Assembly (NCBI GenBank): GCA_964402565.1
Contig: CAYOCJ010000001.1
Location: 416,079-480,078, forward strand
Direction: 5' to 3'
Length of the DNA stretch: 64,000 bases
Origin: an uncultured Gammaproteobacteria bacterium
Lineage (GTDB): Bacteria; Patescibacteriota; Patescibacteriia; UBA1558; 2-01-FULL-52-15
Positions within the stretch are counted from its first letter, which is position 1. The number at the start of each line of letters is the position of its first letter. A program made the translations under genes and the position numbers. The notes beneath the pieces are model-generated. The model had not been told where the DNA came from and ran no database searches. It worked only from the letters and a program-made list of their open reading frames with translations. This document shows, piece by piece, positions 8,112 to 62,382 of this stretch.

Positions 8112-8270
8112 ATGGAACTCACAGATGTACAACTCAAGCTACTTCGAGAGCCGTTTGAGGAAGCAGGGGCACTCAAAGGACTTACCTATGAAGAAATAAA
8201 AAAACTTCTTGAAGAGATTGCAGAAGTGTACATCGTATTGGCTAACGAAAATCTGCTTGCAAAGAAATGA
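8112..8270 (+). CDS. 52-aa helical hypothetical protein (island cargo)
   Basis: The ATG follows the previous stop directly. The stop overlaps the next gene's ATG (ATGA), so it is translationally coupled on both sides. It is below the ORF-track size cutoff. Confidence 0.35.
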   Translation: MELTDVQLKLLREPFEEAGALKGLTYEEIKKLLEEIAEVYIVLANENLLAKK

Positions 8271-8866
8271 ATATGAAAAAGAAAACGAAAATCCCACTCT
8301 ATACAACTGAAGTAGAACCTGAAGACTATACACCGTTTTCAATGGTGTTCGCCTCCGTTTGGAAAGCCTACGATGCAGGTGAAATCAATCCTGAAAAGCT
8401 ACTGCTTTTTCTCAACCTCTATCGAGGTGTGAACCCCCACAACGGGTATGGATTTACGAGTTATGCCGAGCTGTGCCTACGTCTCAAACGAAGGTCAACA
8501 AAACTGGACGAGAATGCAATGAATAAGCTCATGGTGTCATTGCGAGATGATAACCACCTTGTGTGGTTTCCCCAGCATAGCGGAAGCAGAGAGTTTCCTT
8601 ACGTTTTAGCAAAGTTCAAGTTGGCTCAAATAAACAGCAAGGACAAGGAGAAATGGATAGACATCAAGCAGTATTTTCAGAGCAAAAATCAGAGCATCAG
8701 CAGAGCTTATGAACCTTCTTTACCCAGCACTCCACCAGAACCTCCACCGAGGCAACCTATGTCAGAGCAGAGGTTAGAAAGGTCGAATGGTGAATCAATT
8801 ACAAGCATAAAAGAGGATTTGGATAGACGTTATGGCAGACCTCCCCAGACGAATACCGAGTCATAG
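8267..8866 (+). CDS. hypothetical protein (island cargo; Pro-rich acidic C-terminal tail)
   Basis: 199-aa ORF coupled to the upstream small ORF. No recognisable catalytic motif. Confidence 0.5.
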   Translation: MNMKKKTKIPLYTTEVEPEDYTPFSMVFASVWKAYDAGEINPEKLLLFLNLYRGVNPHNGYGFTSYAELCLRLKRRSTKLDENAMNKLMVSLRDDNHLVWFPQHSGSREFPYVLAKFKLAQINSKDKEKWIDIKQYFQSKNQSISRAYEPSLPSTPPEPPPRQPMSEQRLERSNGESITSIKEDLDRRYGRPPQTNTES

Positions 8867-8894
8867 ACATAGACAGATTCGATTATAAAAAATT

Positions 8895-9209
8895 ATGAAA
8901 TCGACTAATCGTTTCCAAATAAGTGAAAGGCATCCGAGCGAATATCCAATAAACAACAACGAAGATGCTCACTGTGTTGATATAGCTCTCGCACTCGGAG
9001 AATCGGATATGAGGTATATCCTTGCACGTCGGCAGCAACTTGGGATGCAGGCAATCAGTGAAGCATACTCGGTTGTGAAGGATGAGATTCGCAAAGGAAA
9101 ATGCCAGTCTCCTGGAAGGCTCTTCAACTACTTGCTTACTCAAAAACTCGAAGAAAAGAAAAAGTCTAAATCTCTGGGGTCAAGAGAACCGCCAATAGAC
9201 GATGGTTGA
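8895..9209 (+). CDS. hypothetical protein (island cargo)
   Basis: 104-aa ORF, no motifs recognised. Confidence 0.4.
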   Translation: MKSTNRFQISERHPSEYPINNNEDAHCVDIALALGESDMRYILARRQQLGMQAISEAYSVVKDEIRKGKCQSPGRLFNYLLTQKLEEKKKSKSLGSREPPIDDG

Positions 9210-9331
9210 CCCCATGTAAGTTATGTTCTTTGCACCTTGATAACTGGACTTGCCACAACCTGCCATAGTGCTATACTTATATTGCTACCTACAAGTTTGA
9301 ATATGTGCACGGGGTCTCTGCTTTTTTAGCT

Positions 9332-9395
9332 CCAATTGTGGGCGAAAAGGGGCAGTCGAGACCTCCGCAATTGGTTGCCTCGTGCAATTCAATCT
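9332..9395. promoter_or_regulatory. repeated CAATTG-type motifs / imperfect inverted repeat in the 260-bp intergenic region upstream of the recombinase gene pair
   Basis: ccaattgtgg (9332-9341) and ccgcaattgg (9365-9374) form a 10-bp imperfect inverted repeat. A third tgcaattcaat copy follows. This is a candidate operator or recombination site. Confidence 0.3.
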
Positions 9396-9469
9396 TGTGG
9401 GTAGCAGGCTCCTCGGCTGTCCCTTTTCGTGTTTATAAATAACCAGGGACGGGTCGGAGCGAATAAGTT

Positions 9470-9945
9470 ATGGCAACGCTACCACCCACATGCACGTCTC
9501 ACGGATACAAAGATAGCTCTGGAAAAACCCAGGTCGTGTTTAGTTCGGATTGCTACTATCCAGGAAGTAACTGCATCCTCACAAACGACCAGTGTGTCTC
9601 TACATTCAAAGAAACTGGTTGCAAGGGTGGAGATGGACAGTATGCGTGTGCGCAAGCCTATTACCTCAAGCAACAAAGCCAGGTAAAGCCACAAGCTCAA
9701 CCTGTGATAATTACAAATACTGGTCAAGAAAATGCGGAGTTGAAAACACAACTTCAAGAAATGCAGAAACAAATCGAGACGTTACAGTCAAAACAAGCTA
9801 CGGCTACCACAACGGTGCCGCCAGCCCAAACTACACCCCTATTTGAAAACCCAGTCGTTCCATATTCGATTTTGGGAATACTCATAGTAGGAATCGTGGT
9901 GTTGATGAAGATGAAAATCATTACAATCTCATCTAACAAACAACC

Positions 9946-9949
<4 letters not shown>
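9470..9949 (+). CDS. Cys-rich, coiled-coil, C-terminally membrane-anchored hypothetical protein, translationally coupled to the serine recombinase
   Basis: 159 aa with 8 Cys in the first 60 residues, a Q/T-rich coiled coil and a C-terminal TM helix (ILGILIVGIVVLM). The stop overlaps the recombinase ATG (ATGA). Confidence 0.5.
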
Positions 9950-11567
<1,618 letters not shown>

Positions 11568-11654
11568 ATAAAACAGAATTACGATACTATGAATAGTACT
11601 GAGCGTCAATTCAACAGCTACAAAAAATAGTAACATTGTGGTATAGTACGCTAT

Positions 11655-23945: not shown

Positions 23946-24995
23946 ATGGCGCTTATCGGAAATCTCATTAACAGGAATTTCGGCAAGAATATCAGCATCG
24001 ATCTGGGCACGTCATCGGTGCTCATTTATGTTGCAGGCCAGGGCATCATCGTCAATGAACCGTCAGTTGTAGCTATCAATAACCGTACTGAGCAAATCCT
24101 TGCTGTGGGCAATGACGCAAAGGTCATGCTTGGAAAAACGCCAGCCTACATTACTATTTCTCGTCCGCTGATTGACGGGGTCATTTCTGATTTCGAGGTG
24201 ACTGAGAAAATGATCAAGCATTTTATCAATAAGATACAGAAAGAGCATTTTGCATTCATGCCCCGTGCGAAAGTCCTCATCGGCGTGCCATTGGATGTGA
24301 CGGAGGTCGAACGCAAGGCAGTAGAGGATGCGGTGATAGGCGCTGGTGCAAAGGAAGTCTATCTGATCGAGGAGCCAATGGCAGCAGCTATAGGCGCAGG
24401 TCTGCAGGTGCAGGAAGCGCAGGCAAATATGATCGTTGATATCGGCGGCGGCACAACAGATATTGCAGTGATTTCGCTCGGCGGCATTGTGACGTGGAAA
24501 TCTTTGAAATTAGCCGGTGAAAAATTGAATGATGTGATCGTACAGTATATTCGCGAGAAGTATAATATCCTGCTTGGAGAGAAAACGAGCGAAGAGGTCA
24601 AGATGCAGATCGGGTCAGTGCTCCCGCTGGAGGAGGAATTAGAAATGCTCATCCGTGGCAGAGACCTCCTGACCGGCTTGCCGAAAGAGATCACGATAAA
24701 TTCACAGGAAATTCGCGAGGCGATGTCACGCATGGTGAAATTGATCGTAGAGAACATCAAGGTTACGGTCGAGAATACGCCGCCAGAATTGGTTGCCGAT
24801 CTGTATCAACGGGGCATGGTCATTTCCGGGGGCGGCGCATTGCTGCGCAATATTGATAAGCTGATCGAGCGGGAAACGAGAATTCCTGTTCATGTAGCAA
24901 ATGACCCGTTAACGACAGTGGTACGGGGCGCTGGCTTAATACTTGAGGATCTGCAAAACTCGCGGGGCATGATCTTGCCTTCGTCTAAGAGATAA
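23946..24995 (+). CDS. mreB: rod shape-determining protein MreB
   Basis: Actin-fold phosphate-1 motif ISIDLGTSS and NEPSVVAI. Followed by mreC and mreD. Confidence 0.9.
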   Translation: MALIGNLINRNFGKNISIDLGTSSVLIYVAGQGIIVNEPSVVAINNRTEQILAVGNDAKVMLGKTPAYITISRPLIDGVISDFEVTEKMIKHFINKIQKEHFAFMPRAKVLIGVPLDVTEVERKAVEDAVIGAGAKEVYLIEEPMAAAIGAGLQVQEAQANMIVDIGGGTTDIAVISLGGIVTWKSLKLAGEKLNDVIVQYIREKYNILLGEKTSEEVKMQIGSVLPLEEELEMLIRGRDLLTGLPKEITINSQEIREAMSRMVKLIVENIKVTVENTPPELVADLYQRGMVISGGGALLRNIDKLIERETRIPVHVANDPLTTVVRGAGLILEDLQNSRGMILPSSKR

Positions 24996-28218: not shown

Positions 28219-28677
28219 ATGGCAGATTCAATCATATTAACTTCACAGGGACTTGAGAAGTTAAAAAAAGAACTTGAGTATTTGAAAAAGGAAAAACGCG
28301 TTCAGGTATCTGAACGCATTCGTGTTGCAAAAGATTTTGGCGACCTTTCTGAGAATGCCGAGTATCATGAGGCGAAAGAGGAGCAAGCCTTCGTCGAAGG
28401 GCGGATCGCTGAGCTTGCTCAAATCATCAAGTCAGCACATGTCGCTGATCCGGTGCAAGGGACAGGAGTTAGTGTCGGCAGTACGGTCGTCGTCGACAAG
28501 AGCGGAACGCGAATGACATTTGAAATAGTCGGTGCGACCGAAGCAGATCCTACGGCCGGCAAGATCTCTCTTGAATCGCCGCTCGGACAGGCATTGCTAG
28601 GCAAAACGGTCGGCGAACAGGTCACTATCACTGCTCCGACCGGCCAGCTCGTTTATACTATTGAAGAAATCAGATAA
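28219..28677 (+). CDS. greA: transcription elongation factor GreA
   Basis: GDLSENAEYHEAKEEQ coiled-coil tip motif and FKBP-like C-domain. A TTGACT-17-TAGAGT promoter is upstream. Confidence 0.9.
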   Translation: MADSIILTSQGLEKLKKELEYLKKEKRVQVSERIRVAKDFGDLSENAEYHEAKEEQAFVEGRIAELAQIIKSAHVADPVQGTGVSVGSTVVVDKSGTRMTFEIVGATEADPTAGKISLESPLGQALLGKTVGEQVTITAPTGQLVYTIEEIR

Positions 28678-29690
28678 TGTTTATAAAGAAAATTGCGGTC
28701 GATCTGGGAACGACGTATACCCTGGTTCACGTGCCGAAGCGGGGTATTATTATCAATGAACCATCTGTTGTGGCTGTTTCAGCTATTGATAAACGCGTAC
28801 TTGCGGTGGGTGAAGAAGCGCGCGATATGATAGGCAGAACTCCTGATACAATCATTGCACGCCGTCCGCTCAAAGATGGTGTCATTGCAGATTATAAGAC
28901 CACCGAGAGCATGTTGAAATATTTCATCTCGAAAGCGACGGGTGGAGTACGTTTCTTCCGTCCTGAGGTCATGATCGCGGTTCCCGCAGGCATTACATCG
29001 ACAGAACGCCGTGCGGTCATCGATGCGACATTGAATGCCGGCGCGAAAGCAGCGTATATTATTAAGCAGCCGATCGCGGCAGCTATTGGCGCGGACATCC
29101 CGATCGGTTCAGCATCGGGCCATATGATCGTTGAGATCGGAGGCGGTACATCTGAAATCGCAGTTATTTCTTTGGGCGGTATTGTTTCGAATACTTCGGT
29201 GCGTATCGGAGGTACGCGGCTCGATGCGGCGATTCAGGAATACATCAAGCGAAAGTATAATCTTGCAATCGGCGAGCGTACTGCAGAGGATATTAAGATC
29301 AAGATCGGCTCAGCTATGTACGTGCCGAAAGATGAGAAGATGCAGATGGAGATCAAAGGCCGAGATATGATCTCTGGTTTGCCGAAAACAATGCTGGTAA
29401 CCTCTGATGATGTCACTGAAGCTCTGCAGAATGATTTGCAGGGTATCATCAATGCGGTGAAGACAGTGCTTTTTCACACGCCTCCGGAACTCTCAGCAGA
29501 TGTTATGGATAAGGGGATGGTATTGTCTGGCGGCACTTCACAACTTCGCAATATCGATAAGCTGCTTTCACAGGCGACGGGTGTCCCTGCCATGCTTGCG
29601 GACGATCCGATGCTTTGTGTGGCTCGTGGTACTGGCGTTGCCCTCGATAACCTTGAAGCATATAAGGTTAGTATTTTGTCAGCAAAGTAG
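28677..29690 (+). CDS. MreB-family actin-like protein (second paralog)
   Basis: IAVDLGTTYT, NEPSVVAV and EIGGGTSEIAVISLGGIV match MreB. It is clearly a paralog of 23946-24995. Confidence 0.85.
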   Translation: MFIKKIAVDLGTTYTLVHVPKRGIIINEPSVVAVSAIDKRVLAVGEEARDMIGRTPDTIIARRPLKDGVIADYKTTESMLKYFISKATGGVRFFRPEVMIAVPAGITSTERRAVIDATLNAGAKAAYIIKQPIAAAIGADIPIGSASGHMIVEIGGGTSEIAVISLGGIVSNTSVRIGGTRLDAAIQEYIKRKYNLAIGERTAEDIKIKIGSAMYVPKDEKMQMEIKGRDMISGLPKTMLVTSDDVTEALQNDLQGIINAVKTVLFHTPPELSADVMDKGMVLSGGTSQLRNIDKLLSQATGVPAMLADDPMLCVARGTGVALDNLEAYKVSILSAK

Positions 29691-45598: not shown

Positions 45599-45829
45599 AT
45601 GCGAAAGAAAATTGAAGCCGTACTTGATCGTATACGCCCTGCGCTTGATGCACATGGAGGCGATGTCGAACTCCTCAAGGTCAGCATGAAAGAAAAAACG
45701 GCTTATATTAAATTTGTCGGCACATGCGACCACTGTGCCATATCCGAAGTAACGCTGAAGTATCTCGTTGAGCGCGAAGTGCATGCGACATGCCCTGAGA
45801 TCACTTCGGTTGTTGCGGTCCAAGCATGA
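45599..45829 (+). CDS. NifU-like (Nfu-type) Fe-S cluster scaffold domain protein
   Basis: 76 aa with the CxxC motif GTCDHCAIS and typical Nfu C-terminal domain residues. Confidence 0.75.
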   Translation: MRKKIEAVLDRIRPALDAHGGDVELLKVSMKEKTAYIKFVGTCDHCAISEVTLKYLVEREVHATCPEITSVVAVQA

Positions 45830-45850: not shown

Positions 45851-46216
45851 ATGTTTAACGGCAAACAACTTCTTCTTTTTTATCGAGAGCGGACCGTGTT
45901 CATTTTTTTTAATGCTGCAATTTTCTTTTTATGCGTAAGTGTTATTTGGATACTTGCGGTGATACAGCCGAGAACAGAATCCATAGCGCTGCACTATGAC
46001 ATTTTTTTTGGCATTGATCGCATCGGCAGCTGGTTCGAATTACTGTATACGGCCGGTGCAATCTGTGCATGCATTTTGGTGAATGCATACATTGCGTATT
46101 ATATTTTTGCGAAAGACAAATACTTGAGCTACTATTTGCTGCTCCTTGGCTCTATAGCATCGTTTATTTTTCTTCTGTATCTGATGAGCCTTACCTTGTT
46201 CGCCTTACCTATATGA
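45851..46216 (+). CDS. hypothetical small membrane protein (3 TM) preceding mraY
   Basis: 121-aa hydrophobic ORF. Its stop overlaps the mraY start. Confidence 0.45.
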   Translation: MFNGKQLLLFYRERTVFIFFNAAIFFLCVSVIWILAVIQPRTESIALHYDIFFGIDRIGSWFELLYTAGAICACILVNAYIAYYIFAKDKYLSYYLLLLGSIASFIFLLYLMSLTLFALPI

Positions 46217-47274
46217 GCAACTTCGAAGTAATAAAGATATTCGGTTTGACGACGATCAGTTTTATTTTGGCAGTACTTTGGACGCCGCTGCTCAGCCATT
46301 TTTTGTATAAGTATCGCCTGGGCAAATCTATCAGGAATGACGGTACAACACCGGTATACAGCAAGCTGCATTTGCATAAGCAGGGTACACCATCGATGGG
46401 AGGCATTTTAATTTGGGTGACGACGCTCGTCATTACACTGTTTTTTTCGTATCTTTCACAGCTGAGTTTTCTTCCGGATTGGCTGAGATCGCTTAATTTC
46501 CTTACCCGGGGAGAGACGTTATTGCCCCTCGGCGTCTTCGTGGCTTCAGCACTCGTCGGCCTGCTTGATGATTGGTTCAATATCACCCACCAGGGATCTG
46601 GTAAAGGCGGCGGACTCAAGATGAAGCATCGATTATTAATTTTTGCATTAATTGCCTTAGTAGGCGCATGGTGGTTCTATTTTAAGCTTAAATGGGATGT
46701 GATTCACATTCCATTCGTCGGTACCTATGGCATTGGCTGGTGGTATATTCCATTTTTCATTTTTGTCATTGTTGCCACGGCTTTCTCGGTTAACGAAATT
46801 GACGGGCTTGATGGATTGGCAGCCGGAGTATTATTGTCATCCTTTGCAAGTCTGGGCGCATTTGCATTCATGCAGGGAAATTATAATTTGGTCACTTTTT
46901 GCGGCGTCATCGTGGGATCCTTGCTTGCCTTTCTCTGGTTCAATATTCCGCCTGCTCGGTTCTTTATGGGTGATACGGGCGCGATGTCATTAGGCGTTAG
47001 CTTAGGTATTATCGCGTTACTTACTCATGCCGAGTTTTTCTTGCCGATTATAGCCCTGCCTCTGGTCATTGAGTCAGGATCTGTAATCCTGCAGATGATC
47101 TCGAAAAAGATCTTTAAAAAGAAGATTTTCATCTCATCGCCTTTGCATCATCACCTCGAAGCACTCGGCTGGTCTGAAAGCAAAATTGTGATGCGTTTTT
47201 GGGTCATTTCCGGGGTCATGTCAGTGGTGGGCCTTATTTTAGCTCTGATGGACAGAAGTTTGCGGCTTTTGTAA
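46213..47274 (+). CDS. mraY: phospho-N-acetylmuramoyl-pentapeptide transferase
   Basis: Polytopic protein with GLLDDW and the PLHHHLE (HHH) motif. In a dcw context before ftsW. Confidence 0.85.
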   Translation: MSNFEVIKIFGLTTISFILAVLWTPLLSHFLYKYRLGKSIRNDGTTPVYSKLHLHKQGTPSMGGILIWVTTLVITLFFSYLSQLSFLPDWLRSLNFLTRGETLLPLGVFVASALVGLLDDWFNITHQGSGKGGGLKMKHRLLIFALIALVGAWWFYFKLKWDVIHIPFVGTYGIGWWYIPFFIFVIVATAFSVNEIDGLDGLAAGVLLSSFASLGAFAFMQGNYNLVTFCGVIVGSLLAFLWFNIPPARFFMGDTGAMSLGVSLGIIALLTHAEFFLPIIALPLVIESGSVILQMISKKIFKKKIFISSPLHHHLEALGWSESKIVMRFWVISGVMSVVGLILALMDRSLRLL

Positions 47275-47285
47275 CGGCACGTTCT

Positions 47286-48476
47286 ATGTTCAAAAAAAAT
47301 AAAAATCGCCAATTTCCGCGCGCTGGTTCTGGAAATTTTTTCAAAAGGCTTTTCTCGAGGACACACCGCATAGAACACCACGCACCTGATTATACATTGC
47401 TCGGAACCACACTAGTACTGCTCTTTGTCGGCCTTATTACGCTGTCATCAGCTACGTCCATTTTGTCGTTTCAGGAAACGAGCGGCACTTATTATTTTTT
47501 GAGGCGACAGCTGACTCACGGCGTTCTGCCCGGGCTCCTGGCCATGTTCATTTTGTATCGTATCCCGTATCGCAAATATCTGGGATTCACGTCATTATTT
47601 TTATTCGCTGTCTATGCGCTGCTGCTCGTCGTATTCGTTCCTTCGCTGCATCCGGCAGGGTACCCGACAAAAAGCTGGATCGATATCGGATTCACGACCA
47701 TTCAGACCAGCGAAATCGCAAAATTGTTTTTTATTCTATGGCTCGCAGGCTGGTGCACGACGCGGCATGCCTCAATACGGAGTTTAACGGTTACCAGCAT
47801 TCCATTTTTTTTGATAACTGCCAGCATAGCAGGCCTTCTGATGCTGCAGCCGGACGCAGGAACCATGATTTTATTTATGGGCATCGCGATGTGCATGTTT
47901 TTTGTTGCCCAGGGTAATTTGCTCCACATTCTGTTCGCCACCGGATTGGGTTCGCTCATTATTATCCCGGTTATATTGAGGGCTCCGTACCGATTTCAGC
48001 GGCTGACGAGTTTCCTGCACCCAAGTGCTGACACGCAGGGCGCAGGGTATCAGATCTATCAAGCATTGATCGCGCTTGGTTCTGGCTCATGGTTCGGCCT
48101 TGGCATCGGGCGCTCGCAACAAAAGTTTTATTTTGTGCCGGAAGTGGAAAGCGATTCGATATTCGCCATCATAGGCGAAGAGCTTGGCTTCATTATTTCA
48201 GCGATCTTGCTGATTTTATTCGTTTCGCTTTTTTTGCGCGGGATCCGCATAGCGAGAAATGCTCCTGACAGATACGGCGCGCTCGTTGCATGGGGGGTCA
48301 CGCTCCTGATAACGCTTCAGGTCGTCGTCAATGTCGGCGCTATCGTCGGCCTCCTGCCGCTCACTGGGATTCCCTTGCCGTTTATCAGCTTAGGTGGTAC
48401 GAATATCGTTGTCTTGCTTGCCGGACTTGGCATTTTGCTGAATATTTCAACCTATACGAAAGAACAACATGGTTAG
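47286..48476 (+). CDS. ftsW: SEDS-family peptidoglycan glycosyltransferase FtsW/RodA (FtsW by context)
   Basis: 10-TM SEDS protein between mraY and murG. Start at the ATG at 47286. Confidence 0.8.
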   Translation: MFKKNKNRQFPRAGSGNFFKRLFSRTHRIEHHAPDYTLLGTTLVLLFVGLITLSSATSILSFQETSGTYYFLRRQLTHGVLPGLLAMFILYRIPYRKYLGFTSLFLFAVYALLLVVFVPSLHPAGYPTKSWIDIGFTTIQTSEIAKLFFILWLAGWCTTRHASIRSLTVTSIPFFLITASIAGLLMLQPDAGTMILFMGIAMCMFFVAQGNLLHILFATGLGSLIIIPVILRAPYRFQRLTSFLHPSADTQGAGYQIYQALIALGSGSWFGLGIGRSQQKFYFVPEVESDSIFAIIGEELGFIISAILLILFVSLFLRGIRIARNAPDRYGALVAWGVTLLITLQVVVNVGAIVGLLPLTGIPLPFISLGGTNIVVLLAGLGILLNISTYTKEQHG

Positions 48477-50841
48477 GATTTTGCTCTCAGGCGGAGGAAC
48501 GCTTGGGTCAGTGTCGCCGCTTATTGCTATCAAAGAATCGGTTCCTGAGGCTGATTATTTATTTGTCGGGACAAAAAATGGTATTGAGCGTTCCTTCGTC
48601 AAGCGTTTTGGCATACGCTATAAATATATCGGCACCGTAAAGTTCAGGCGCTATCTCTCTTTCGCCAATCTCATAGATCTGGTGAAAATGCCATTCGTAT
48701 TTTTTCAGGCGCTGACCATAGTCATCAGGTATCGGCCGCATATCATTTTGACGTCGGGAAGCTTCGTCTCTGTGCCGGTCGCGTACGCCGGCAAATTATG
48801 CGGCTGTACTATTTTCATTCATCAGCAGGATGCGCAGGTAGGCCTGGCAAACCGCATGATCATGTGGATCGCAAGGGTCATCACGACAACCTTCGAAGAA
48901 CAGGTCAAGTCATTTTCGTTACAAAAGACCCATTGGACAGGCAATCCGATTCGTCCGTTAGAGCAAAAAAATATTGCTGAAGAGGATCTCATACTGGTAC
49001 TGGGCGGCAGCAGCGGAGCGCATGGGCTGAATGCCGCAATGGGCGAGGTGCTCCCGAATTTTAGCGAACGGTATGAGATCGTACATGTACTTGGCAGTCG
49101 AAATTTTTTCCAGCGACTGAGCCTGGGGAAAAAATATAACGCCGTGCAATTTCTTGATGCTGAATACGCCGACGTGCTTCAACGAGCGCGTGTTGTTGTT
49201 ACGCGAGCCGGCATGTCGACATTGACTGAACTGGCGCACTATAAAAAAGCGACCTTAGTCATACCGATGCCGGATACGCATCAGGTTCCCAATGCACAAT
49301 TTTTTGCAAACCACGAAGCTGTGGTGTATGTGCCGCAGATGGATCGGAGGATGCAGATTGTTGAGCTTGAGAAAATGCTGACCGATTCGAAGAGGCGATC
49401 GTCTTTGGGCAAAGCGCTGCATAAGCTGTTTCCTGATGATGCAAATGTGCGCTATGCAAAACTATTGCGTTCATACTTTCCCGCTGATCAGCATGCGGTG
49501 AAGACAGCTTACTTTGTCGGCATCGGGGGCATCGGCATATCGGCTGTTGCTGAACAGTTCATTGAAGATGGGTATGCGGTCATCGGTTCAGATCTCAGGC
49601 CGACACAGGTGACCAAACAATTAGAATCACGCGGCGCTCGAATTTTTTATGATCATCGAAAGGAAAATGTACCTGCGACGCTTGAAGTGCTCATCTATTC
49701 GACAGCAGTGCCGATCACCAATGAGGAAATAGTGGAAGCGCAGCATCGGCACATTGCTGTGTATTCGTATAAGGACTACCTTGGTGAAATATCAAAAAAA
49801 TACACGACGGTCGCTATTTCAGGCACACATGGCAAAACAACGACCACCGCTCTTACCGGTCTAATGCTGAAAGAGGGCGGTCTGGACCCAACGATTATTG
49901 TCGGGTCATTCGTCCCGCAACTCGGCAATATGAATTATCATGCAGGCAAGGGCGGCATTTTGGTCGTTGAAGCAGATGAGTACCGATCGGATATGCTGAG
50001 GCTGCATCCGACGATCGCTGTCGTGACCAATATCGATAAGGACCACCTTGATTTTTATAAAGACATAAACGATATTACTGAGCATTTCCGATCATTCATT
50101 CACCTCGTACCTTCTGATGGCATGGTCATTCTGAACGGAGATGATAGTCGCTTGAGGAAGATAGCCTCAGCTCACGCAACGACATATGGTCTGTCTGAAA
50201 ACGTCGATTATCAGGCTACGAAGCTCAGCCTCGGCAATGGCGTGCAGCATTTTTCGGTACTCGAGAAAAAAAAGCTCTTAGGCTCATTTGAACTGCATGT
50301 CCCAGGAGAATTCAATGTATTGAACGCGCTTGCCGGGATTGCAGTTGCGCGACGTTTTCAAATACCGCTTGCCTCGATACAAAAAAGCGTTCAGTCTTTT
50401 AAAGGTACGTGGAGGCGATTCGAATATATCGGCAATTTTAATGAAGCGAAGGTCTTTACCGACTATGCGCATCATCCGACCGCTATACACGCAACGTTGA
50501 CGGCGGCAAAATCATTTTATCCGAAGCACCGGCTGGTGGTGGTATTTCAGCCGCACTCGTATGACCGCACTGACAAGCTCTTCAACGAATTTTTGGATGC
50601 GTTCCGGGAAGCCGACATGTTGAGGCTCGTAGATGTATACGATGTTGCCGGCCGAGATACAGCAAAAAAAGCAAATTCAAAAGATCTGATTGCACACCTC
50701 TCGCATCCGGCTTCAAAATATATTGGTTCGCTCGATGAGCTGCGGGCCGACCTCGAGAAAGAAATTACACAGCATGATATACTGGTAATCATGGGCGCGG
50801 GTGATATCGACGCCTTTGCACGATCATTGGTCACCACATGA
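48469..50841 (+). CDS. murG: bifunctional MurG (lipid II GlcNAc transferase) - MurC (UDP-MurNAc--L-Ala ligase) fusion protein
   Basis: MurG region at aa 1-345 (LLSGGGTLGSVSPLIAI, GGSSGAHGLN, TRAGMSTLTEL). MurC region at aa 350-790 (YFVGIGGIGISAVAEQ, AISGTHGKTTTTAL). Continuous ORF of 790 aa. Confidence 0.85.
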   Translation: MVRILLSGGGTLGSVSPLIAIKESVPEADYLFVGTKNGIERSFVKRFGIRYKYIGTVKFRRYLSFANLIDLVKMPFVFFQALTIVIRYRPHIILTSGSFVSVPVAYAGKLCGCTIFIHQQDAQVGLANRMIMWIARVITTTFEEQVKSFSLQKTHWTGNPIRPLEQKNIAEEDLILVLGGSSGAHGLNAAMGEVLPNFSERYEIVHVLGSRNFFQRLSLGKKYNAVQFLDAEYADVLQRARVVVTRAGMSTLTELAHYKKATLVIPMPDTHQVPNAQFFANHEAVVYVPQMDRRMQIVELEKMLTDSKRRSSLGKALHKLFPDDANVRYAKLLRSYFPADQHAVKTAYFVGIGGIGISAVAEQFIEDGYAVIGSDLRPTQVTKQLESRGARIFYDHRKENVPATLEVLIYSTAVPITNEEIVEAQHRHIAVYSYKDYLGEISKKYTTVAISGTHGKTTTTALTGLMLKEGGLDPTIIVGSFVPQLGNMNYHAGKGGILVVEADEYRSDMLRLHPTIAVVTNIDKDHLDFYKDINDITEHFRSFIHLVPSDGMVILNGDDSRLRKIASAHATTYGLSENVDYQATKLSLGNGVQHFSVLEKKKLLGSFELHVPGEFNVLNALAGIAVARRFQIPLASIQKSVQSFKGTWRRFEYIGNFNEAKVFTDYAHHPTAIHATLTAAKSFYPKHRLVVVFQPHSYDRTDKLFNEFLDAFREADMLRLVDVYDVAGRDTAKKANSKDLIAHLSHPASKYIGSLDELRADLEKEITQHDILVIMGAGDIDAFARSLVTT

Positions 50842-51761
50842 ATATTCAAGAACACGTCAGCTTAAAAGAATATACGACATTCCGGATCGGCGGGCCTGCC
50901 CGTTATTTTTGCATTGCACAATCCTCGCATGACGTTATTGAAGCATTACGGTGGGCACAAGAAAAAAAGATATCAACCTTTATACTTGGCGGCGGAAGCA
51001 ATCTGCTTTTTTCTGACGATGGTTTTAATGGGCTTGTCATAAAGCTGCAGATCAATTTTTTCGAGGTCAATGCTACCATGGTTACAGTCGGAGCGAGTGT
51101 GGTATTAGCTGAACTTATAGAGAAAACTCTGGCAGCTGGTTTAACAGGCCTTGAATTTGCCGCAGGTATTCCTGGTGAGGTTGGTGGCGCGATAAGAGGG
51201 AATGCCGGCACGTATGGGGTGAGTATGGGCGATTGCATCGATGAGGTACTGGTGGTCAACCGAAGCACCTTGCAAGAGGAGCGAATAAAAGCGGCTGAGT
51301 GCGGCTTTGCATATCGGCACAGCAGTTTCAAAGAAAATGGGGATATCATTATTTCTGCCAAAATGCGCCTGTCACAGGGAGATGTCAGTGCGAGTAAAAA
51401 AATAATAGATGAACGTATTCAAGTGCGACATGAAAATCATCCTCTGGAGCCTTCGGCTGGATGCGTGTTTAAGAATATAGAGTTCTCTAAAATTGATGAA
51501 AACGACCTGGCAAAGCGCGGCGTTGACCTTGAGCAGTTCCGCAAATACCAGAAAATCCCGACCGGTTTCCTCGTTGAGCAACTTGGTTTGAAGGGCAAGA
51601 TGATAGGCGGTGCAGCAATCTCAGCGCGTCACGGCAACTACATTATCAATAATGGCACAGCGACATTTGAGGACGTGATCATTTTGATCAGCCTTATTAA
51701 ACAACAGGTGCGGGATGCATTTGGCATACAGCTTGAAGAGGAGATCCACGTCATTTCTTAG
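50838..51761 (+). CDS. murB: UDP-N-acetylenolpyruvoylglucosamine reductase
   Basis: FAD-binding PCMH domain (TFRIGGPARYF, ILGGGSNLL) and a MurB C-terminal domain. Confidence 0.9.
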   Translation: MNIQEHVSLKEYTTFRIGGPARYFCIAQSSHDVIEALRWAQEKKISTFILGGGSNLLFSDDGFNGLVIKLQINFFEVNATMVTVGASVVLAELIEKTLAAGLTGLEFAAGIPGEVGGAIRGNAGTYGVSMGDCIDEVLVVNRSTLQEERIKAAECGFAYRHSSFKENGDIIISAKMRLSQGDVSASKKIIDERIQVRHENHPLEPSAGCVFKNIEFSKIDENDLAKRGVDLEQFRKYQKIPTGFLVEQLGLKGKMIGGAAISARHGNYIINNGTATFEDVIILISLIKQQVRDAFGIQLEEEIHVIS

Positions 51762-55196: not shown

Positions 55197-56909
55197 ATGA
55201 ATAAGTATCGAGTTGAGTCAACTAGACGCAGAATGTCATCCCGGACGCAGGTCCGGCTTAGTTTATTGGCCATCGTGCTCTTGGCTGGTTTTTTTTCGCT
55301 CATCGCCTGGCCGAATTTGCCGGCAGGTTTCCCCGCATCTGCATATTTTAATAAATTTTCTCCGCATCTTGGACTAGATCTGCAGGGAGGTACGCACTTG
55401 GTATATCAGGCAGACCTTTCCAATATTGATTCATCTGAAAAGAATTCAGCGATCGAAGGAGCTCGAGATGTCATTGAACGCCGCGTCAATACCTTAGGCG
55501 TTGCTGAACCGGTCGTTGAAACCGCAAATCAGGCTGGCAATGCCCGCATCATTGTCGAGCTGGCAGGCATTAAAGATGTTAATCAGGCTATCAAACTGAT
55601 CGGTGATACGCCTTTGCTTGAATTTAAGGAAACATCTGATCAAAAGGCAACATCCACTCAGCCGACAGCCGATCAGATTTCAGCTGTAACAAAGGCGAAT
55701 CAGGAAAAAGAAAAGCTCGCAAAGGAACTTATTGCACGATTGAACAAAGGTGAATCCTTTGATGAGCTGGCGAAAAAATATTCTGAGGATACATCGAAGG
55801 ATAAAGGCGGCGATCTTGGTTTCGTGACCAAAGGTGTCTTTACGCCGCTCTTCGAGAAGGCGATCTTTGACGAAATGAAGGTCGGAGAATTGCGCCAGAC
55901 ACCTCTAAAAACGGAATTCGGATACCATGTGATCAAAAAGTTAGAGGAGCGGACCAATGATAAGGGCGAGAAAGAAGTGCGTGCGGCTCACATTCTCTTG
56001 AAGACGGCTTCTATAGCTCCGGCGACCACCGATATACAGTGGGTCAATACTCAGCTCTCAGGCAAGAACTTGAAGCGTGCGCAGGTTACTTTTAGTTATC
56101 AGGCAAATGAGCCGCAGGTTAGTTTGATGTTCGACAGCGAGGGCGCTGACCTCTTCAAAACGATCACTGAACGCAATATTGGAAAGCAAGTCGGCATTTT
56201 TCTGGATGGTTCAGTTATTTCAGCGCCGACTGTGCAAACAGCTATTACCGGAGGTCAGGCGGTTATCACGGGGAATTTCGGTCTTAAGGAAGCTAAGCTT
56301 TTGGCGCAGCGCTTAAACGCTGGTGCATTGCCGGTGCCGATCTCTTTGATCAATCAACAGACCATCGGCGCTAGCCTTGGCCAGGATTCGCTGCAACGCA
56401 GTTTGCAGGCAGGCCTGATCGGCTTTATTTTGGTGGCTTTGTTTATGATTCTGTATTATCGATTGCCAGGCGTTCTCTCAGTATTGGCTTTGGCTTTGTA
56501 TGCCATTATCACGCAGGGGCTGTTTGAAATCATCCCAGTAACGCTGACATTAGCCGGTGTAGCTGGTTTTATTCTTTCTGTAGGTATGGCGGTCGACGCG
56601 AACGTGCTGATCTTCGAACGTGTCAAAGAGGAATTACGCTCCGGAAGCAGCTATCTGCAGGCAGTAGAGGATGGTTTCAAGCGAGCATGGTCATCGATTC
56701 GCGACTCGAATGTATCGAGCCTTATCACCTGTGCGATTTTGTATTGGTTCGGTTCTTCAATTATCCGGGGTTTTGCCGTCACATTGGCCTTAGGCATTCT
56801 CGTGAGTATGTTCTCGGCTATCAATGTGACTCGAACCTTCCTGCGTATTATCATCAAACGGCAGTTCATACAGAAGAGCTGGTTATTCGGAATTAGAAAG
56901 AATTCATAA
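55197..56909 (+). CDS. secD: protein translocase subunit SecD with an embedded parvulin-like (PpiC-type) segment in the periplasmic domain
   Basis: GLDLQGGTHLVYQ SecD motif and a C-terminal 6-TM SecD region. Residues ~165-270 carry GGDLGF....FGYHVIKK and a following AAHILLK, which are hallmarks of parvulin rotamases. Confidence 0.85.
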   Translation: MNKYRVESTRRRMSSRTQVRLSLLAIVLLAGFFSLIAWPNLPAGFPASAYFNKFSPHLGLDLQGGTHLVYQADLSNIDSSEKNSAIEGARDVIERRVNTLGVAEPVVETANQAGNARIIVELAGIKDVNQAIKLIGDTPLLEFKETSDQKATSTQPTADQISAVTKANQEKEKLAKELIARLNKGESFDELAKKYSEDTSKDKGGDLGFVTKGVFTPLFEKAIFDEMKVGELRQTPLKTEFGYHVIKKLEERTNDKGEKEVRAAHILLKTASIAPATTDIQWVNTQLSGKNLKRAQVTFSYQANEPQVSLMFDSEGADLFKTITERNIGKQVGIFLDGSVISAPTVQTAITGGQAVITGNFGLKEAKLLAQRLNAGALPVPISLINQQTIGASLGQDSLQRSLQAGLIGFILVALFMILYYRLPGVLSVLALALYAIITQGLFEIIPVTLTLAGVAGFILSVGMAVDANVLIFERVKEELRSGSSYLQAVEDGFKRAWSSIRDSNVSSLITCAILYWFGSSIIRGFAVTLALGILVSMFSAINVTRTFLRIIIKRQFIQKSWLFGIRKNS

Positions 56910-59140: not shown

Positions 59141-60658
59141 ATGAACGCCTGGTTCGAACAAATTACCGTTTTTTTTGTTGAGCTTTCTACCAAGAATCCA
59201 CTGTCTATCATGTGGATTTTATTTCTTAAAGGAGGCTGGGTCATTGTCATGATCGGCTTGCTTCGGCTGTGGTGGCTGATGCGTTTATATTCGCTGCAAA
59301 CCAAGTACAGCAAAACCATCACGTATACCATGCTTGCCATAGATATTCCGAAGGCCAGCGAACAAACGCCGAAAGCCATGGAACAGGTGTTCGCTACTAT
59401 ATCTGGGGCGCATGCAGACTTCAACAAAAAAGAAATTTATCTGAAGGGAATGTACCAATTGTCATTTTCTTTCGAGATCATCAGTATTGACGGGTATATT
59501 CAGTTTTTGATTCGAACGCCATCGGTATTCCGAGATCTGATCGAAGGCGCGATCTATGCCCATTATCCCGACGCTGAGATCACGGAAGTGTATGATTATA
59601 CGACCGATATACCGACTAATTTCCCCAATGATAGATTCAACCTCTGGGGCGCTGAGATCGAAACTGCAGCAAATGAGGCGCTGCCGCTACGTACGTACGA
59701 GTCTTTCGAGGATAAATTGTCGCAAGAACTGAAAGACCCGCTGGCCGGCGTGCTCGAAACCATGAGCCGCATTCAAAAAGGAGAGCAAGTCTGGCTTCAG
59801 ATCATCGTGAAGCCGACGGACACCGCATGGGCGAAAAAATGCATCGCATATGCTCATAAGCTAGCCGGCAAGAAAACTGAGACCAAAAGCAGCAAATCCT
59901 GGTACTCGCCAATTTTGGGTTTTCTCTATGGCATGTTCGATGATTGGATATCATGGATGCCTGGCTCAAAAGTCGAATCGAAAAATGATAACGGGCTGGA
60001 TTTTAAAGTATTGAACCTCACACCGGGTGAACGCGCTACCATTGAAGCGGTGGAGCGGAAAGCTTCAAAGATAGGCTTCGTTTGCAAAATTCGACTCATG
60101 TATCTTTCTCCTCACGAGCAATTTTCCGCGAAGCGCGTTGTCTCCGCAGTATTCGGCGGTATGAAGCAATTCGGAGACCTCAGCTCAAATGCGTTGAAGC
60201 CCAATAAGCGGACAAAGACACAGGCAGTGTATTTCAGGCCAGAACAGCGCGCAGATGCACGGAGACGGAGGATCATGGGCAATTACAAAGCGCGCTCGTG
60301 GTTTAACGGATCAAAATACTTCATTTTGAATACTGAAGAACTTGCAACACTCTATCATTTCCCGTCGATCACGGTGACTACACCGTACTTGAAACGCACC
60401 GAGGCAAAAAAGAGCGACGCGCCTTCTCAATTGCCTTCCAGTGCTGAAGAGGTCATGGTGCAAGAAGAGAGCAACCTTAAGCAGCAGCTTGAAGGCTTAT
60501 CGCTCGATAATAGCTACTACGAAAAATTATACGCGAAAGGACCTGTTGAAAAACCCAAGCAAAAAGCGACGCTCAGTACTCCCGAAAAACAGCAGCCAGG
60601 TACACCAGCAATCGAGTCGAGTGACGGTGTCCCGCATAATTTACCGATACTGCAATGA
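59141..60658 (+). CDS. membrane-anchored hypothetical protein (2 N-terminal TM + ~430-aa soluble domain), coupled to T4CP-like ATPase
   Basis: 505-aa ORF with no motif recognised. Stop/start ATGA overlap with the downstream ATPase gene. Confidence 0.6.
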   Translation: MNAWFEQITVFFVELSTKNPLSIMWILFLKGGWVIVMIGLLRLWWLMRLYSLQTKYSKTITYTMLAIDIPKASEQTPKAMEQVFATISGAHADFNKKEIYLKGMYQLSFSFEIISIDGYIQFLIRTPSVFRDLIEGAIYAHYPDAEITEVYDYTTDIPTNFPNDRFNLWGAEIETAANEALPLRTYESFEDKLSQELKDPLAGVLETMSRIQKGEQVWLQIIVKPTDTAWAKKCIAYAHKLAGKKTETKSSKSWYSPILGFLYGMFDDWISWMPGSKVESKNDNGLDFKVLNLTPGERATIEAVERKASKIGFVCKIRLMYLSPHEQFSAKRVVSAVFGGMKQFGDLSSNALKPNKRTKTQAVYFRPEQRADARRRRIMGNYKARSWFNGSKYFILNTEELATLYHFPSITVTTPYLKRTEAKKSDAPSQLPSSAEEVMVQEESNLKQQLEGLSLDNSYYEKLYAKGPVEKPKQKATLSTPEKQQPGTPAIESSDGVPHNLPILQ

Positions 60659-62382
60659 CAAACGATTCCATAACAGTATTTGCCTCTACTAATTTCCGCA
60701 ATCGCCAGCAGCGATTCGGCATTAAGGCTGATGATCGTCGCCGGCATATGTATTTGATCGGTAAAACCGGCATGGGCAAGTCTGAAATGCTGAAGAATAT
60801 GGCAATTCAGGATATTCGCAATGGTCATGGCGTTGCTGTGGTCGATCCTCACGGCGACATGGTAGAAACGGTCCTGCGTTTCGTGCCGCGCGAACGGATC
60901 AATGATGTGGTGTATTTCAATCCGTCCGACCTTGATTTCCCGATCGCATTCAATGTACTTGAAAAAGTATCACTAGAGCAGCGCCATTTAGTTGCGTCAG
61001 GCCTGATAGGCGTTTTCAAAAAGATCTGGGCCGACTCCTGGGGGCCTCGTCTCGAATACGTCCTGCACAATGCAATCTCTGCGTTGCTGGAGTATCCCGG
61101 CTCGACCTTACTGAGTATTATGCGAATGCTCACGGATAAGGCTTTCCGCAAGCGCGTCGTTGAAAAGATCAATGACCCCGTCGTAAAAGCATTCTGGGTG
61201 GAGGAGTATTCGAAATATCCTGACCGGTTCCAGGCTGAAGCGATCGCACCGATCCAAAACAAAGTCGGACGATTCCTCACATCTGCTCTCATGAGAAATA
61301 TTGTAGGACAGGTCGCTTCATCGATCAACGTCCGTGAGATGATGGATAATCAGAAGATCTTTCTTATTAATTTGTCAAAAGGACGCGTCGGAGAAGATAA
61401 TTCGGCCTTGCTCGGTGCTCTGCTGATCACAAAAATGCAGCTTGCTGCAATGAGCCGTGTCGATATACCCGAAAAAGATCGTAAAGATTTTTATTTGTAT
61501 GTTGACGAGTTTCAAAATTTTGCCACCGAAAGTTTTGCCGGTATTCTGTCTGAAGCCAGAAAGTATCGCCTGAATCTAATTTTGGCACACCAATATATTG
61601 CGCAGCTCGTGCATGATGGCAATAGTACGGTTCGCGATGCGGTATTCGGCAACGTAGGCACCTTGGTTACATTCAGAGTCGGTGCTGCTGACGCTGAATT
61701 TATGGAACCGGAGTTTATGCCGGCTTTGACACAGGAGGACCTGGTCAACTTACCGAAGTATCAGATCTATTTGAAACTTATGATCGATGGCGTTACCTCG
61801 AATGCTTTTTCAGCATCGACTTTGCCACCGTATGAGCCGCCGGCTGATGCGGCTGAAATCGTTGATAAGGTTATTAAAGTTTCTCGCGAACGATACGCAA
61901 AACCTCGCGAGGTGATTGAGGACAAAATCATTCGCTGGGCCGAAAATACCGGCGATGACCAGCCGAAGGCCAGCCACGATACCCAATCAACACAAGCTGC
62001 CGCGCCGAGGGTTTATGAAGCAGGCGGGTCCCGTGACCGATCAACTTCAGATATAAAGGCTCCGAAAGGTGATGCGAAACTATTCGATGCTACCTGTTCT
62101 AACTGCGGCAAGAAAACAACCACGAAATTTAAACCCGATCCCAAGCGGCCCGTATACTGCCCTGAATGCCTGCAAAAGGTTAAAGCTGGCCTGCTGCAAC
62201 CTGCTCCAGTACAAGCTGCTGCACCGATTCCAAAGGAAGTCTCTTTGATGGAGGCTATTTCATCTCATCAACAAAAGAGACCTGTAAAGACAGATGATTT
62301 GGTAGGCTCGCTCGACGATAAGCCCGCAAATCGCCTGCTCCAGCCGAACCAAGTTATACACCTAAGCGATAGTAAAAACTGA
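60655..62382 (+). CDS. FtsK/HerA-superfamily P-loop ATPase most similar to type IV coupling proteins (TraD/VirD4-like), no TM segments, C-terminal zinc ribbon
   Basis: Walker A GKTGMGKSE followed by VAVVDPHGD, Walker B FYLYVDEFQNF, and RKYRLNLILAHQYIAQL, a T4CP-like arginine finger/Q motif. C-terminal CSNCG...CPEC zinc ribbon. Confidence 0.7.
   Translation: MTNDSITVFASTNFRNRQQRFGIKADDRRRHMYLIGKTGMGKSEMLKNMAIQDIRNGHGVAVVDPHGDMVETVLRFVPRERINDVVYFNPSDLDFPIAFNVLEKVSLEQRHLVASGLIGVFKKIWADSWGPRLEYVLHNAISALLEYPGSTLLSIMRMLTDKAFRKRVVEKINDPVVKAFWVEEYSKYPDRFQAEAIAPIQNKVGRFLTSALMRNIVGQVASSINVREMMDNQKIFLINLSKGRVGEDNSALLGALLITKMQLAAMSRVDIPEKDRKDFYLYVDEFQNFATESFAGILSEARKYRLNLILAHQYIAQLVHDGNSTVRDAVFGNVGTLVTFRVGAADAEFMEPEFMPALTQEDLVNLPKYQIYLKLMIDGVTSNAFSASTLPPYEPPADAAEIVDKVIKVSRERYAKPREVIEDKIIRWAENTGDDQPKASHDTQSTQAAAPRVYEAGGSRDRSTSDIKAPKGDAKLFDATCSNCGKKTTTKFKPDPKRPVYCPECLQKVKAGLLQPAPVQAAAPIPKEVSLMEAISSHQQKRPVKTDDLVGSLDDKPANRLLQPNQVIHLSDSKN

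What the first reader, a model, noticed from the sequence alone, without database searches (positions are those of the whole stretch)
45851..51761. Condensed dcw cluster with a MurG-MurC fusion and no murD between mraY and ftsW
A single 790-aa ORF encodes complete MurG and MurC domains. The fusion couples the last cytoplasmic membrane step (lipid II synthesis) to the first Mur ligase, whereas they are normally separate adjacent genes. The absence of murD from its usual slot implies relocation.
Basis: seen in the sequence. Interest (0 to 1): 0.55.

Follow-up and report, generated by a model that had tools for sequence, protein, structure and literature searches.

The report
Conserved MurG–MurC fusion gene in Patescibacteria
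One 790-residue gene in this candidate-phyla-radiation bacterium joins two cell-wall enzymes (MurG and MurC) that are normally separate neighbours; the fusion is real and conserved in a clade, but MurG–MurC fusions are already a known kind of protein.

Summary
ORF 48469-50841 (+) encodes a complete MurG (aa 1-335), a roughly 11-residue linker and a complete MurC (aa 347-790). The mraY stop and the ftsW start are 11 nt apart, so murD is not in its usual slot.

It is not a frameshift artefact:
- The identical 790-aa product occurs in two independent assemblies.
- Sixteen clusters at 42-70% identity, from NCBI, ENA, JGI and Logan, keep one ORF.
- All four genome contexts checked have the order orf~120-mraY-ftsW-murG::murC-murB.

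Both halves are equally conserved and keep their catalytic motifs. They fold with pLDDT 93.7 onto solved MurG and MurC structures. Unfused relatives have murG and murC overlapping by 11-20 nt in different frames, and have murD in the slot. A small indel is therefore the likely origin of the fusion, and the loss of murD from the slot is derived.

MurG-MurC chimeras are already described, mainly in Actinobacteria (Shirakawa 2023). This is an independent occurrence in a Komeilibacteria-like Patescibacteria clade, so a new member of a known kind.

Where murD, murE and murF lie in this genome could not be determined. Relocation is the likely answer but is not shown. Interest is low to moderate.

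The parts
45599..45829 (+). nifU-like small gene (76 aa). It precedes the cluster here and in relatives.
   Evidence: PF01106 E 1.8e-20. Same position in L001, L003 and L005.
45851..46216 (+). orf121: conserved hydrophobic protein (about three predicted membrane helices, by eye) of unknown function. Its stop overlaps the mraY start (ATGA).
   Evidence: No Pfam or NCBIfam hit. An ORF of 100-121 aa with no Pfam hit lies in the same position in L001, L003, L004 and L005 (position only; sequences not compared). The sister-clade ORF (L007) is 28% identical, E 7e-11.
46213..47274 (+). mraY (353 aa from ATG 46213; the mechanical ORF starts at 46069).
   Evidence: TIGR00445 217.5 bits, above the cut-off of 192. 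PF00953. Relatives' MraY proteins are 351-353 aa.
47286..48476 (+). ftsW/SEDS (396 aa from ATG 47286). It starts 11 nt after the mraY stop, so there is no murD slot.
   Evidence: PF01098 E 3.7e-86. TIGR02614 328 bits. Relatives have a 2- to 12-nt mraY-ftsW gap.
48469..49473 (+). MurG half of the fused gene (aa 1-335): GT28, GT-B fold.
   Evidence: PF03033 and PF04101. TIGR01133 186.5 bits when scanned alone. Residues for UDP-GlcNAc binding are invariant. The model matches P. aeruginosa MurG 3S2U with TMt 0.84.
49474..49506 (+). Junction or linker (aa 336-346, FPADQHAVKTA). It is variable in sequence and nearly constant in length, and has no conserved internal start codon.
   Evidence: linker identity 0-36% against 41-75% for the domains. 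pLDDT in this stretch is 82-88.
49507..50841 (+). MurC half of the fused gene (aa 347-790, plus stop).
   Evidence: TIGR01082 450.8 bits, above the cut-off of 335.1. The P-loop GTHGKTTT, EADE, DHLD, DYAHHPT and FQPH..RT motifs are invariant or nearly so. The model matches H. influenzae MurC 1P3D/1P31 with TMt 0.91.
50838..51761 (+). murB (307 aa). Its start overlaps the murG::murC stop by 4 nt.
   Evidence: NF010480 273.9 bits, above the cut-off of 259. PF01565 and PF02873.

Best explanation
The gene encodes a genuine bifunctional MurG-MurC protein. The N-terminal half is the peripheral-membrane glycosyltransferase that converts lipid I to lipid II. The C-terminal half is the ATP-dependent ligase that adds L-Ala to UDP-MurNAc.

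Origin. The fusion arose within a Komeilibacteria-like lineage of Patescibacteria from adjacent murG and murC genes whose ends overlapped in different frames. A small indel removed the murG stop and read straight into murC. This produced a chimera with almost no linker, about 11 residues made from the old MurG tail and MurC head.

Function. Both activities are retained. The two reactions are not consecutive, so the gain is not substrate channelling. The fusion enforces 1:1 co-expression. It also tethers the first Mur ligase to MurG at the membrane, making permanent a MurG-scaffolded Mur enzyme assembly that other bacteria are thought to form transiently.

murD. The same lineage lost murD from the ancestral mraY-murD-ftsW slot. 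murD (with murE and murF) is presumed to lie elsewhere in the genome.

Shown: the architecture, its conservation, the intact motifs, the folds, and the arrangement in unfused relatives. Inferred: the indel mechanism, the retained activities, the tethering and stoichiometry benefit, and the relocation of murD.
For: - Architecture and family scores.
- Not an artefact. The identical 790-aa product is in NCBI and Logan assemblies. An independent Logan contig from SRR12313480 calls a 790-residue MurG+MurC gene and is 100% identical over the 187 nt compared.
- Clade-level conservation. Sixteen fused clusters of 788-800 aa at 42-70% identity. All four genome contexts checked (L001, L003, L004, L005) have the order orf~120-mraY-ftsW-murG::murC-murB.
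- Both halves are under similar constraint. MurG is 41-75% identical and MurC 43-67%, while the linker is 0-36% identical and keeps its length.
- Invariant catalytic and binding residues in both halves.
- AlphaFold2 gives mean pLDDT 93.7, pTM 0.77 and a linker pLDDT of 82-88. The halves superpose on solved MurC (TMt 0.91) and MurG (TMt 0.84).
- Unfused relatives. Kerfeldbacteria L006 has the same wider synteny, but murG and murC are separate and overlap by 20 nt in different frames. L028 overlaps by 11 nt. L021 overlaps by 14 nt.
- L007, L028, L029 and L011 all have murD between mraY and ftsW.
- An NJ tree of the MurC domain puts the 16 fused proteins in one clade, next to unfused Patescibacteria MurC.
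- Literature on MurG as a scaffold for Mur ligases and on known MurG-MurC chimeras: PMC6420597, PMC10214165.
Against: - No enzymatic, localisation or expression data exist.
- The MurG half scores below the TIGR01133 equivalog cut-off (186.5 against 250.25). It also has Ser where E. coli MurG has the G-loop His. Both features are shared with unfused Patescibacteria MurG.
- I could not read inter-domain contacts or the predicted aligned error (PAE, AlphaFold's estimate of how well the domains are positioned relative to each other) of the model. A fixed MurG-MurC geometry is therefore only suggested by pTM and linker pLDDT.
- The rest of the genome was not visible. A second stand-alone murG or murC, or the absence of murD, murE and murF, cannot be excluded.
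- The NJ tree has no support values, and actinobacterial chimeras were not included.
Confidence: 0.85

Rival explanations
1. Sequencing or assembly frameshift artefact: murG and murC are really two genes and a false indel merged them.
For: Unfused relatives have murG and murC overlapping by 11-20 nt, so a single-base error could merge them. At least one 'fused' database protein (P0036) looks like a frameshifted read-through.
Against: The identical 790-aa product is found in two independent assemblies. Sixteen divergent clusters from different projects keep one ORF with a length-conserved linker. All four genome contexts checked have the same gene order.
Confidence: 0.02
2. The fusion is real but one half is a decaying or repurposed domain. 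For example, the MurG half could be only a membrane anchor, with a functional stand-alone murG elsewhere in the genome.
For: The MurG half scores lowest of the Patescibacteria MurG proteins tested against TIGR01133 (186.5 bits). It lacks the G-loop His. The rest of the genome was not inspected.
Against: The MurG half is as conserved as the MurC half across the clade. The R246, E254, Q272, N275 and GGS-loop positions are invariant. The His-to-Ser/Pro change and the sub-threshold scores also occur in unfused MurG of relatives. The GT-B fold is confidently predicted. No second murG lies in the window or in the ±10 kb flanks of relatives.
Confidence: 0.07
3. The fused reading frame is transcribed as one mRNA, but MurC is also (or mainly) translated separately from an internal start. 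In that case the cell still has free MurC.
For: There is an in-frame GTG at Val344, just before the MurC domain.
Against: No ATG and no Shine-Dalgarno-like purine run precede it. No Met or other start-capable residue is conserved in the linker across the 16 fused proteins.
Confidence: 0.05

Closest known systems
MurG-MurC chimeras catalogued by Shirakawa et al. 2023 (PNAS, PMC10214165), mainly in Actinobacteria; also mentioned in Laddomada et al. 2019 (PMC6420597)
   Same: One polypeptide with MurG at the N-terminus and MurC at the C-terminus. The two genes are neighbours in the dcw cluster. The enzymes catalyse non-consecutive steps, so the proposed benefit is co-expression and complex stabilisation rather than channelling.
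   Different: The host lineage is Patescibacteria/CPR. That paper excluded sequences from unidentified species and does not mention CPR. The nearest MurC relatives here are unfused Patescibacteria proteins, which points to an independent fusion. I did not align actinobacterial chimeras directly. No solved structure of any MurG-MurC chimera was found in the PDB.
MurE-MurF chimera of Bordetella pertussis (linker-less, head-to-tail; PDB 8F5D appeared as a weak match labelled 'Multifunctional fusion protein')
   Same: A natural Mur chimera with essentially no linker. It is evidence for physical association of Mur enzymes.
   Different: MurE and MurF are two paralogous ligases that catalyse consecutive steps. 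Here a GT-B glycosyltransferase is joined to a ligase from the opposite end of the pathway.
Unfused murG and murC of Kerfeldbacteria-like and other Patescibacteria relatives (L006, L007, L028)
   Same: Orthologous domains (MurC 40-44% identity, MurG 34-41%). Same neighbourhood (murJ-lepA ... ftsW-murG-murC-murB-hpf-secA-secDF). Same unusual GGGTLGS-type G-loop in MurG.
   Different: These are two genes with overlapping ends (11-20 nt) or with an inserted gene between them. L007, L028 and L029 keep murD between mraY and ftsW.
MurB-MurC fusion of Verrucomicrobium spinosum (PMC4803751) and MurC-Ddl of Chlamydia
   Same: MurC fused to another peptidoglycan-precursor enzyme encoded next to it.
   Different: Different partner and different order. 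In this window murB is a separate gene that overlaps the fused gene by 4 nt.

Membership tests
[quoted passage not shown] | Score above the curated equivalog cut-off | tested here: met
   450.8 bits against a cut-off of 335.1, aa 348-787 covering model positions 3-448 of 449.
[quoted passage not shown] | Three-domain Mur ligase architecture with an ATP P-loop and the conserved acidic and His motifs | tested here: met
   PF01225, PF08245 and PF02875 are all present. G452, T453, G455, K456, T458-T460, E501, E504, H526, D528, D665, Y666, H668, H669, P670, Q694, P695, H696, R700 and T701 are invariant in the 18 fused proteins.
[quoted passage not shown] | Fold matches solved MurC structures | tested here: met
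   Foldseek against 1P31/1P3D/4HV4: TMt 0.91, rmsd 2.1-2.8 Å. The sequence match to 9IR5 and 2F00 has E 1e-85 to 1e-90.
[quoted passage not shown] | L-Ala-adding activity on UDP-MurNAc | not testable with these tools
   Needs an enzyme assay.
MurG (GT28, TIGR01133) | GT28 N- and C-terminal domains above the Pfam gathering scores | tested here: met
   PF03033 80.6 bits (GA 26.2). PF04101 78.8 bits (GA 22).
MurG (GT28, TIGR01133) | Score above the NCBIfam equivalog cut-off | tested here: not met
   183.5-186.5 bits against 250.25. Unfused MurG proteins of Patescibacteria relatives, sitting in the murG position, also fall below it (196.9, 232.6 and 249.6 bits). This reflects lineage divergence, not decay of the fused copy.
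MurG (GT28, TIGR01133) | Conserved UDP-GlcNAc-binding residues of the C-domain (E. coli R261, E269, Q288/Q289, N292; numbering from my own knowledge) | tested here: met
MurG (GT28, TIGR01133) | First G-loop GGTGGH with the conserved His (E. coli H19; from my own knowledge) | tested here: not met
   The loop here is GGGTLGS. Within the fused clade the position is S, P, H or A. Unfused L007 has S and L006 has P. The substitution is lineage-wide and its effect on catalysis is unknown.
MurG (GT28, TIGR01133) | GT-B fold matching solved MurG | tested here: met
   3S2U (P. aeruginosa MurG with UDP-GlcNAc): TMt 0.84, rmsd 3.7 Å over 353 columns.
Natural MurG-MurC chimera class (Shirakawa 2023) | Single ORF with MurG at the N-terminus and MurC at the C-terminus, both complete | tested here: met
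Natural MurG-MurC chimera class (Shirakawa 2023) | Common descent with the actinobacterial chimeras | tested here: inconclusive
   All of the nearest non-clade MurC hits that carry a taxon name, or whose context I checked, are unfused Patescibacteria proteins at 40-44% identity, and the 16 fused proteins form their own clade. Two other fused proteins fall elsewhere in the tree or in a different context: P0018 and Omnitrophota P0023. Actinobacterial chimeras were not retrieved or placed in the tree.
Canonical dcw cluster | Order mraY-murD-ftsW-murG-murC | tested here: not met
   The mraY stop is at 47274 and the ftsW start at 47286. No Mur-ligase similarity exists anywhere in the window except the MurC half.
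Canonical dcw cluster | Flanking mraZ-rsmH-ftsL-ftsI-murE-murF upstream and ddl-ftsQ-ftsA-ftsZ downstream | tested here: not met
   Upstream are lexA (-), L27 (-), ftsX, ftsE and divIC. Downstream are hpf, secA, secD and secF.

The most novel reading that the evidence does not exclude
This clade may offer a natural, rigid, membrane-tethered 'minimal Mur complex'. The near-linker-less junction is length-conserved and has pLDDT 82-88. It could lock MurC against MurG in a fixed geometry, pinning the first ligase step to the lipid II synthesis site in ultra-small cells.

A more radical version is that the loss of murD from its slot reflects real absence or replacement of MurD in these genomes. That would imply an unusual stem-peptide pathway. 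My evidence excludes neither version, because I could not see the inter-domain confidence of the model or the rest of the genome.
Probability: 0.1. Interest if true: 0.55.

Novelty: new member of a known kind. Interest (0 to 1): 0.25.

Why it matters
It adds an independent, clade-wide example from the Candidate Phyla Radiation to the known MurG-MurC chimeras. The same two non-consecutive enzymes have been fused repeatedly: here, in another Patescibacteria lineage (P0018), in an Omnitrophota MAG (P0023), and in Actinobacteria according to the literature. That recurrence is comparative evidence that MurG and MurC interact physically or need matched dosage, which supports the idea of a MurG-scaffolded Mur complex.

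The protein is short-linkered and confidently modelled, and no MurG-MurC chimera structure was found in the PDB, so it could be a good structural target.

For annotation, relatives are named only 'MurC' in NCBI and JGI. The MurG function of these genomes can therefore be missed in pathway reconstructions.

Tried and rejected
**Locating murD, murE and murF.**
- tblastn of three MurD proteins and one other Mur ligase against the window and the relatives' flanks found only the MurC half.
- The search for homologous proteins with the sister-clade MurD, and with its nearest 50%-cluster representative P0246, gave no hit on a contig of 633,461 bp. That is the longest contig on record for P0001 and probably the window's source.
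- The search of protein representatives plus a cluster look-up of the top 10 representatives found nothing either.
- Only the best 120-150 hits are visible, so this is absence of evidence.

**Looking up the window's own genome.** The look-up of encoding contigs had no record for P0001. A window-edge protein found only a 20-kb Logan contig that lies inside the window.

**Genome-contig scan with the fused protein.** Among GTDB representatives only the 70% relative is truly fused. The 'full-length' matches L011, L021 and L025 are adjacent separate murG and murC genes that tblastn joined. L023 and L026 gave similar matches but I did not check their ORFs. The window's genome is not a representative.

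**Other checks.**
- P0036, an 838-aa 'fused' protein, was rejected as a probable frameshift artefact because of its Gly/Arg/Pro-rich middle.
- Promoter and terminator scans of 44.5-52.3 kb gave nothing above shuffled expectation.
- The afdb50 fold library was unavailable, so other modelled chimeras could not be compared.
- Substrate channelling was rejected as the rationale. MurC's product is not MurG's substrate (pathway knowledge; also argued in PMC10214165).
Full report
**What is in the sequence.** The window has the gene content of a Candidate Phyla Radiation (Patescibacteria) genome. One relative of the fused protein is labelled Candidatus Komeilibacteria.

The region 45.6-51.8 kb reads, all on the + strand:
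- nifU-like, 45599-45829
- a hydrophobic 121-aa ORF, 45851-46216
- mraY, 46213-47274
- ftsW, 47286-48476
- a 790-aa ORF, 48469-50841
- murB, 50838-51761
- then hpf, secA, secD and secF

. The starts of mraY and ftsW were moved inward from the mechanical ORF starts. This matches the 351-353-aa and 387-399-aa orthologues of relatives. Consecutive genes overlap by 4-8 nt or are 11 nt apart, so this is probably one translationally coupled operon. A consensus promoter and terminator scan gave nothing above shuffled background.

**The fused ORF.**
- Pfam places GT28 N- and C-terminal domains at aa 4-307 and the three Mur-ligase domains at aa 348-778.
- NCBIfam calls the C-terminal half MurC at equivalog level (450.8 bits, cut-off 335.1). 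The N-terminal half matches MurG best, at 183.5 bits, below the cut-off of 250.25.
- The sub-threshold MurG score is a property of the lineage. Three unfused Patescibacteria MurG proteins score 197-250 bits, also below the cut-off.
It is open in frame.

**Not an artefact.**
- The exact 790-aa sequence is recorded from two independent assemblies, NCBI and Logan.
- A 19,959-bp Logan contig from run SRR12313480 carries a gene call of 790 residues with MurG and MurC domains. It is identical to the window over the 187 nt I could compare.
- Sixteen clusters of 788-800 aa, at 42-70% identity and from NCBI, ENA, JGI and Logan, keep the single ORF.
- The four whose contexts I fetched (70%, 52%, 43% and 42% identity) all show orf~120-mraY-ftsW-murG::murC-murB, with no murD within ±10 kb.
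- Across the clade the MurG half (41-75% identity to the window protein) and the MurC half (43-67%) are equally conserved. The linker is free in sequence (0-36%) but varies in length by only a few residues. It has no conserved Met.

**Are both halves competent?** The MurC P-loop and the acidic, His and Arg motifs are invariant. In MurG, the positions aligned with E. coli R261, E269, Q288/289 and N292 are invariant. The E. coli numbering and sequence come from my memory.

One deviation stands out. The first G-loop is GGGTLGS rather than GGTGGH. The position of the E. coli His is S, P, H or A within the clade. It is also S or P in unfused relatives. So this is a Patescibacteria trait, not a consequence of the fusion.

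AlphaFold2 on a 53-sequence alignment gives mean pLDDT 93.7, pTM 0.77 and no disordered segment. The linker has pLDDT 82-88. The model's halves match solved MurC (1P31/1P3D, TMt 0.91) and MurG (3S2U, TMt 0.84). No PDB chain covers both halves. I could not access PAE or coordinates, so a fixed inter-domain geometry is only suggested.

**How it arose.** A Kerfeldbacteria-labelled relative (L006) shares the wider synteny: DUF4012-murJ-lepA ... ftsW-murG-murC-murB-hpf ... secA ... secD(PPIase)-secF. Its murG and murC are separate and overlap by 20 nt, with murC one base out of frame relative to murG. Other relatives overlap by 11 nt (L028) or 14 nt (L021).

A small indel in such an overlap would remove the murG stop and give exactly the short linker seen here. 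This is an inference.

An NJ tree of the MurC domain puts the 16 fused proteins in one clade, beside an unfused Patescibacteria clade represented by L007 (no support values). Two other fused proteins are placed elsewhere: P0018, whose gene lies next to infA-rpsM, and Omnitrophota P0023. That suggests repeated independent fusions.

**murD.** L007, L028, L029 and L011 have murD between mraY and ftsW, sometimes with an extra gene inserted. Its absence from the fused clade's slot is therefore derived. L006 also lacks both mraY and murD next to ftsW.

Where murD, murE and murF now lie could not be established (see Tried and rejected). The window encodes MurB, MurC, MraY, MurG, MurJ, FtsW, a class B PBP, MreB (two copies) and MreC. 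The organism therefore evidently makes peptidoglycan and needs MurD, MurE and MurF. Relocation is by far the likeliest reading, but it is an inference.

**Comparison with what is known.** MurG-MurC chimeras are an established class. Shirakawa et al. 2023 (PMC10214165) report them as about 9% of the Mur chimeras in UniProt, concentrated in Actinobacteria. They argue that, because the steps are non-consecutive, the fusion serves co-expression and complex stability. Laddomada et al. 2019 (PMC6420597) list the same fusion and show MurG acting as an oligomeric scaffold for Mur ligases. Neither the 2023 paper nor my literature searches mention a CPR example.

This is therefore a new member of a known kind, probably of independent origin.

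**Verdict.** The functional reading is a bifunctional enzyme whose fusion gives tethering and matched stoichiometry rather than channelling. The claim that murD was relocated is plausible but unproven. Novelty is modest.

Noticed in passing
window 45851-46216 (+); also L001 7373-7738, L003 7430-7786, L004 7478-7780, L005 7408-7773, L007 4013-4360, L028 7855-8241, L029 6413-6799: A roughly 100-130-aa hydrophobic ORF with no Pfam or NCBIfam family sits immediately upstream of mraY, overlapping it by ATGA in the window. It occurs in both fused and unfused Patescibacteria relatives. The window and L007 copies are 28% identical, E 7e-11; the other copies were matched by position only. It may be an unnamed lineage-specific partner of MraY or of the divisome.
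   Followed up: partly
window 48490-48513 (MurG aa 8-15); L006, L007: The first G-loop of MurG is GGGTLGS rather than GGTGGH. The His regarded as important in E. coli MurG (from my own knowledge) is S, P, A or H in these Patescibacteria, in fused and unfused proteins alike.
   Followed up: partly
window 55197-56909 (+); L001, L006: SecD carries an inserted PpiC-type peptidyl-prolyl isomerase (Rotamase) domain between its first periplasmic subdomain and the P1 head. The insertion is conserved in relatives.
   Followed up: no
window 1-11600: The left end has lower GC (41-44% against 47-49%). It holds a type I restriction-modification system (hsdR 4234-6750; a fused hsdM/hsdS 1814-4231) and a large serine recombinase (9946-11526) whose 3' end overlaps a tRNA-Gln on the opposite strand (11494-11567). 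This is probably an integrated island.
   Followed up: no
L010, L011 (GCA_964422585.1 and another binchicken TPA MAG): The record titles say 'uncultured Gammaproteobacteria bacterium', but the gene content and protein similarities are Patescibacteria. The titles are evidently mislabelled.
   Followed up: no
P0340, P0372, P0281, P0311, P0388, P0352 (MurD relatives); L028 9289-11404: Other Mur chimeras appear among MurD homologues: Cu-oxidase_4 (YfiH/PgeF-like)-MurD fusions, which match the adjacent gene order mraY-Cu-oxidase_4-murD in L028; an alpha/beta-hydrolase-MurD; a GrpB-MurD; and two- and three-ligase polypeptides of 912 and 1330 aa.
   Followed up: partly
P0036 (838 aa, ENA): A database 'MurG-MurC fusion' whose middle is a Gly/Arg/Pro-rich stretch typical of out-of-frame translation of GC-rich DNA. 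It is probably a frameshift artefact, a caution for automated counts of chimeras.
   Followed up: partly
window 23946-24995 and 28677-29690 (+): There are two MreB paralogues. Downstream of the first lie mreC, an unassigned 163-aa ORF (possibly mreD), a class B PBP and greA, and then the second. A 926-aa DUF4012 protein and four glycosyltransferase genes (a Bac_transf sugar transferase and three GT4 enzymes) lie just upstream of murJ.
   Followed up: no
window 59141-62382 (+); L001, L008, L030: A DUF8128 protein is followed by a TrwB/TraG-like coupling ATPase with a C-terminal zinc finger. The pair is conserved next to a sigma-70-region-4/HARE-HTH protein in the relative L001 (L030 is an independent assembly of the same organism); L008 shows only the DUF8128 gene, in a different context. 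This may be a conserved CPR DNA-uptake or secretion module.
   Followed up: no
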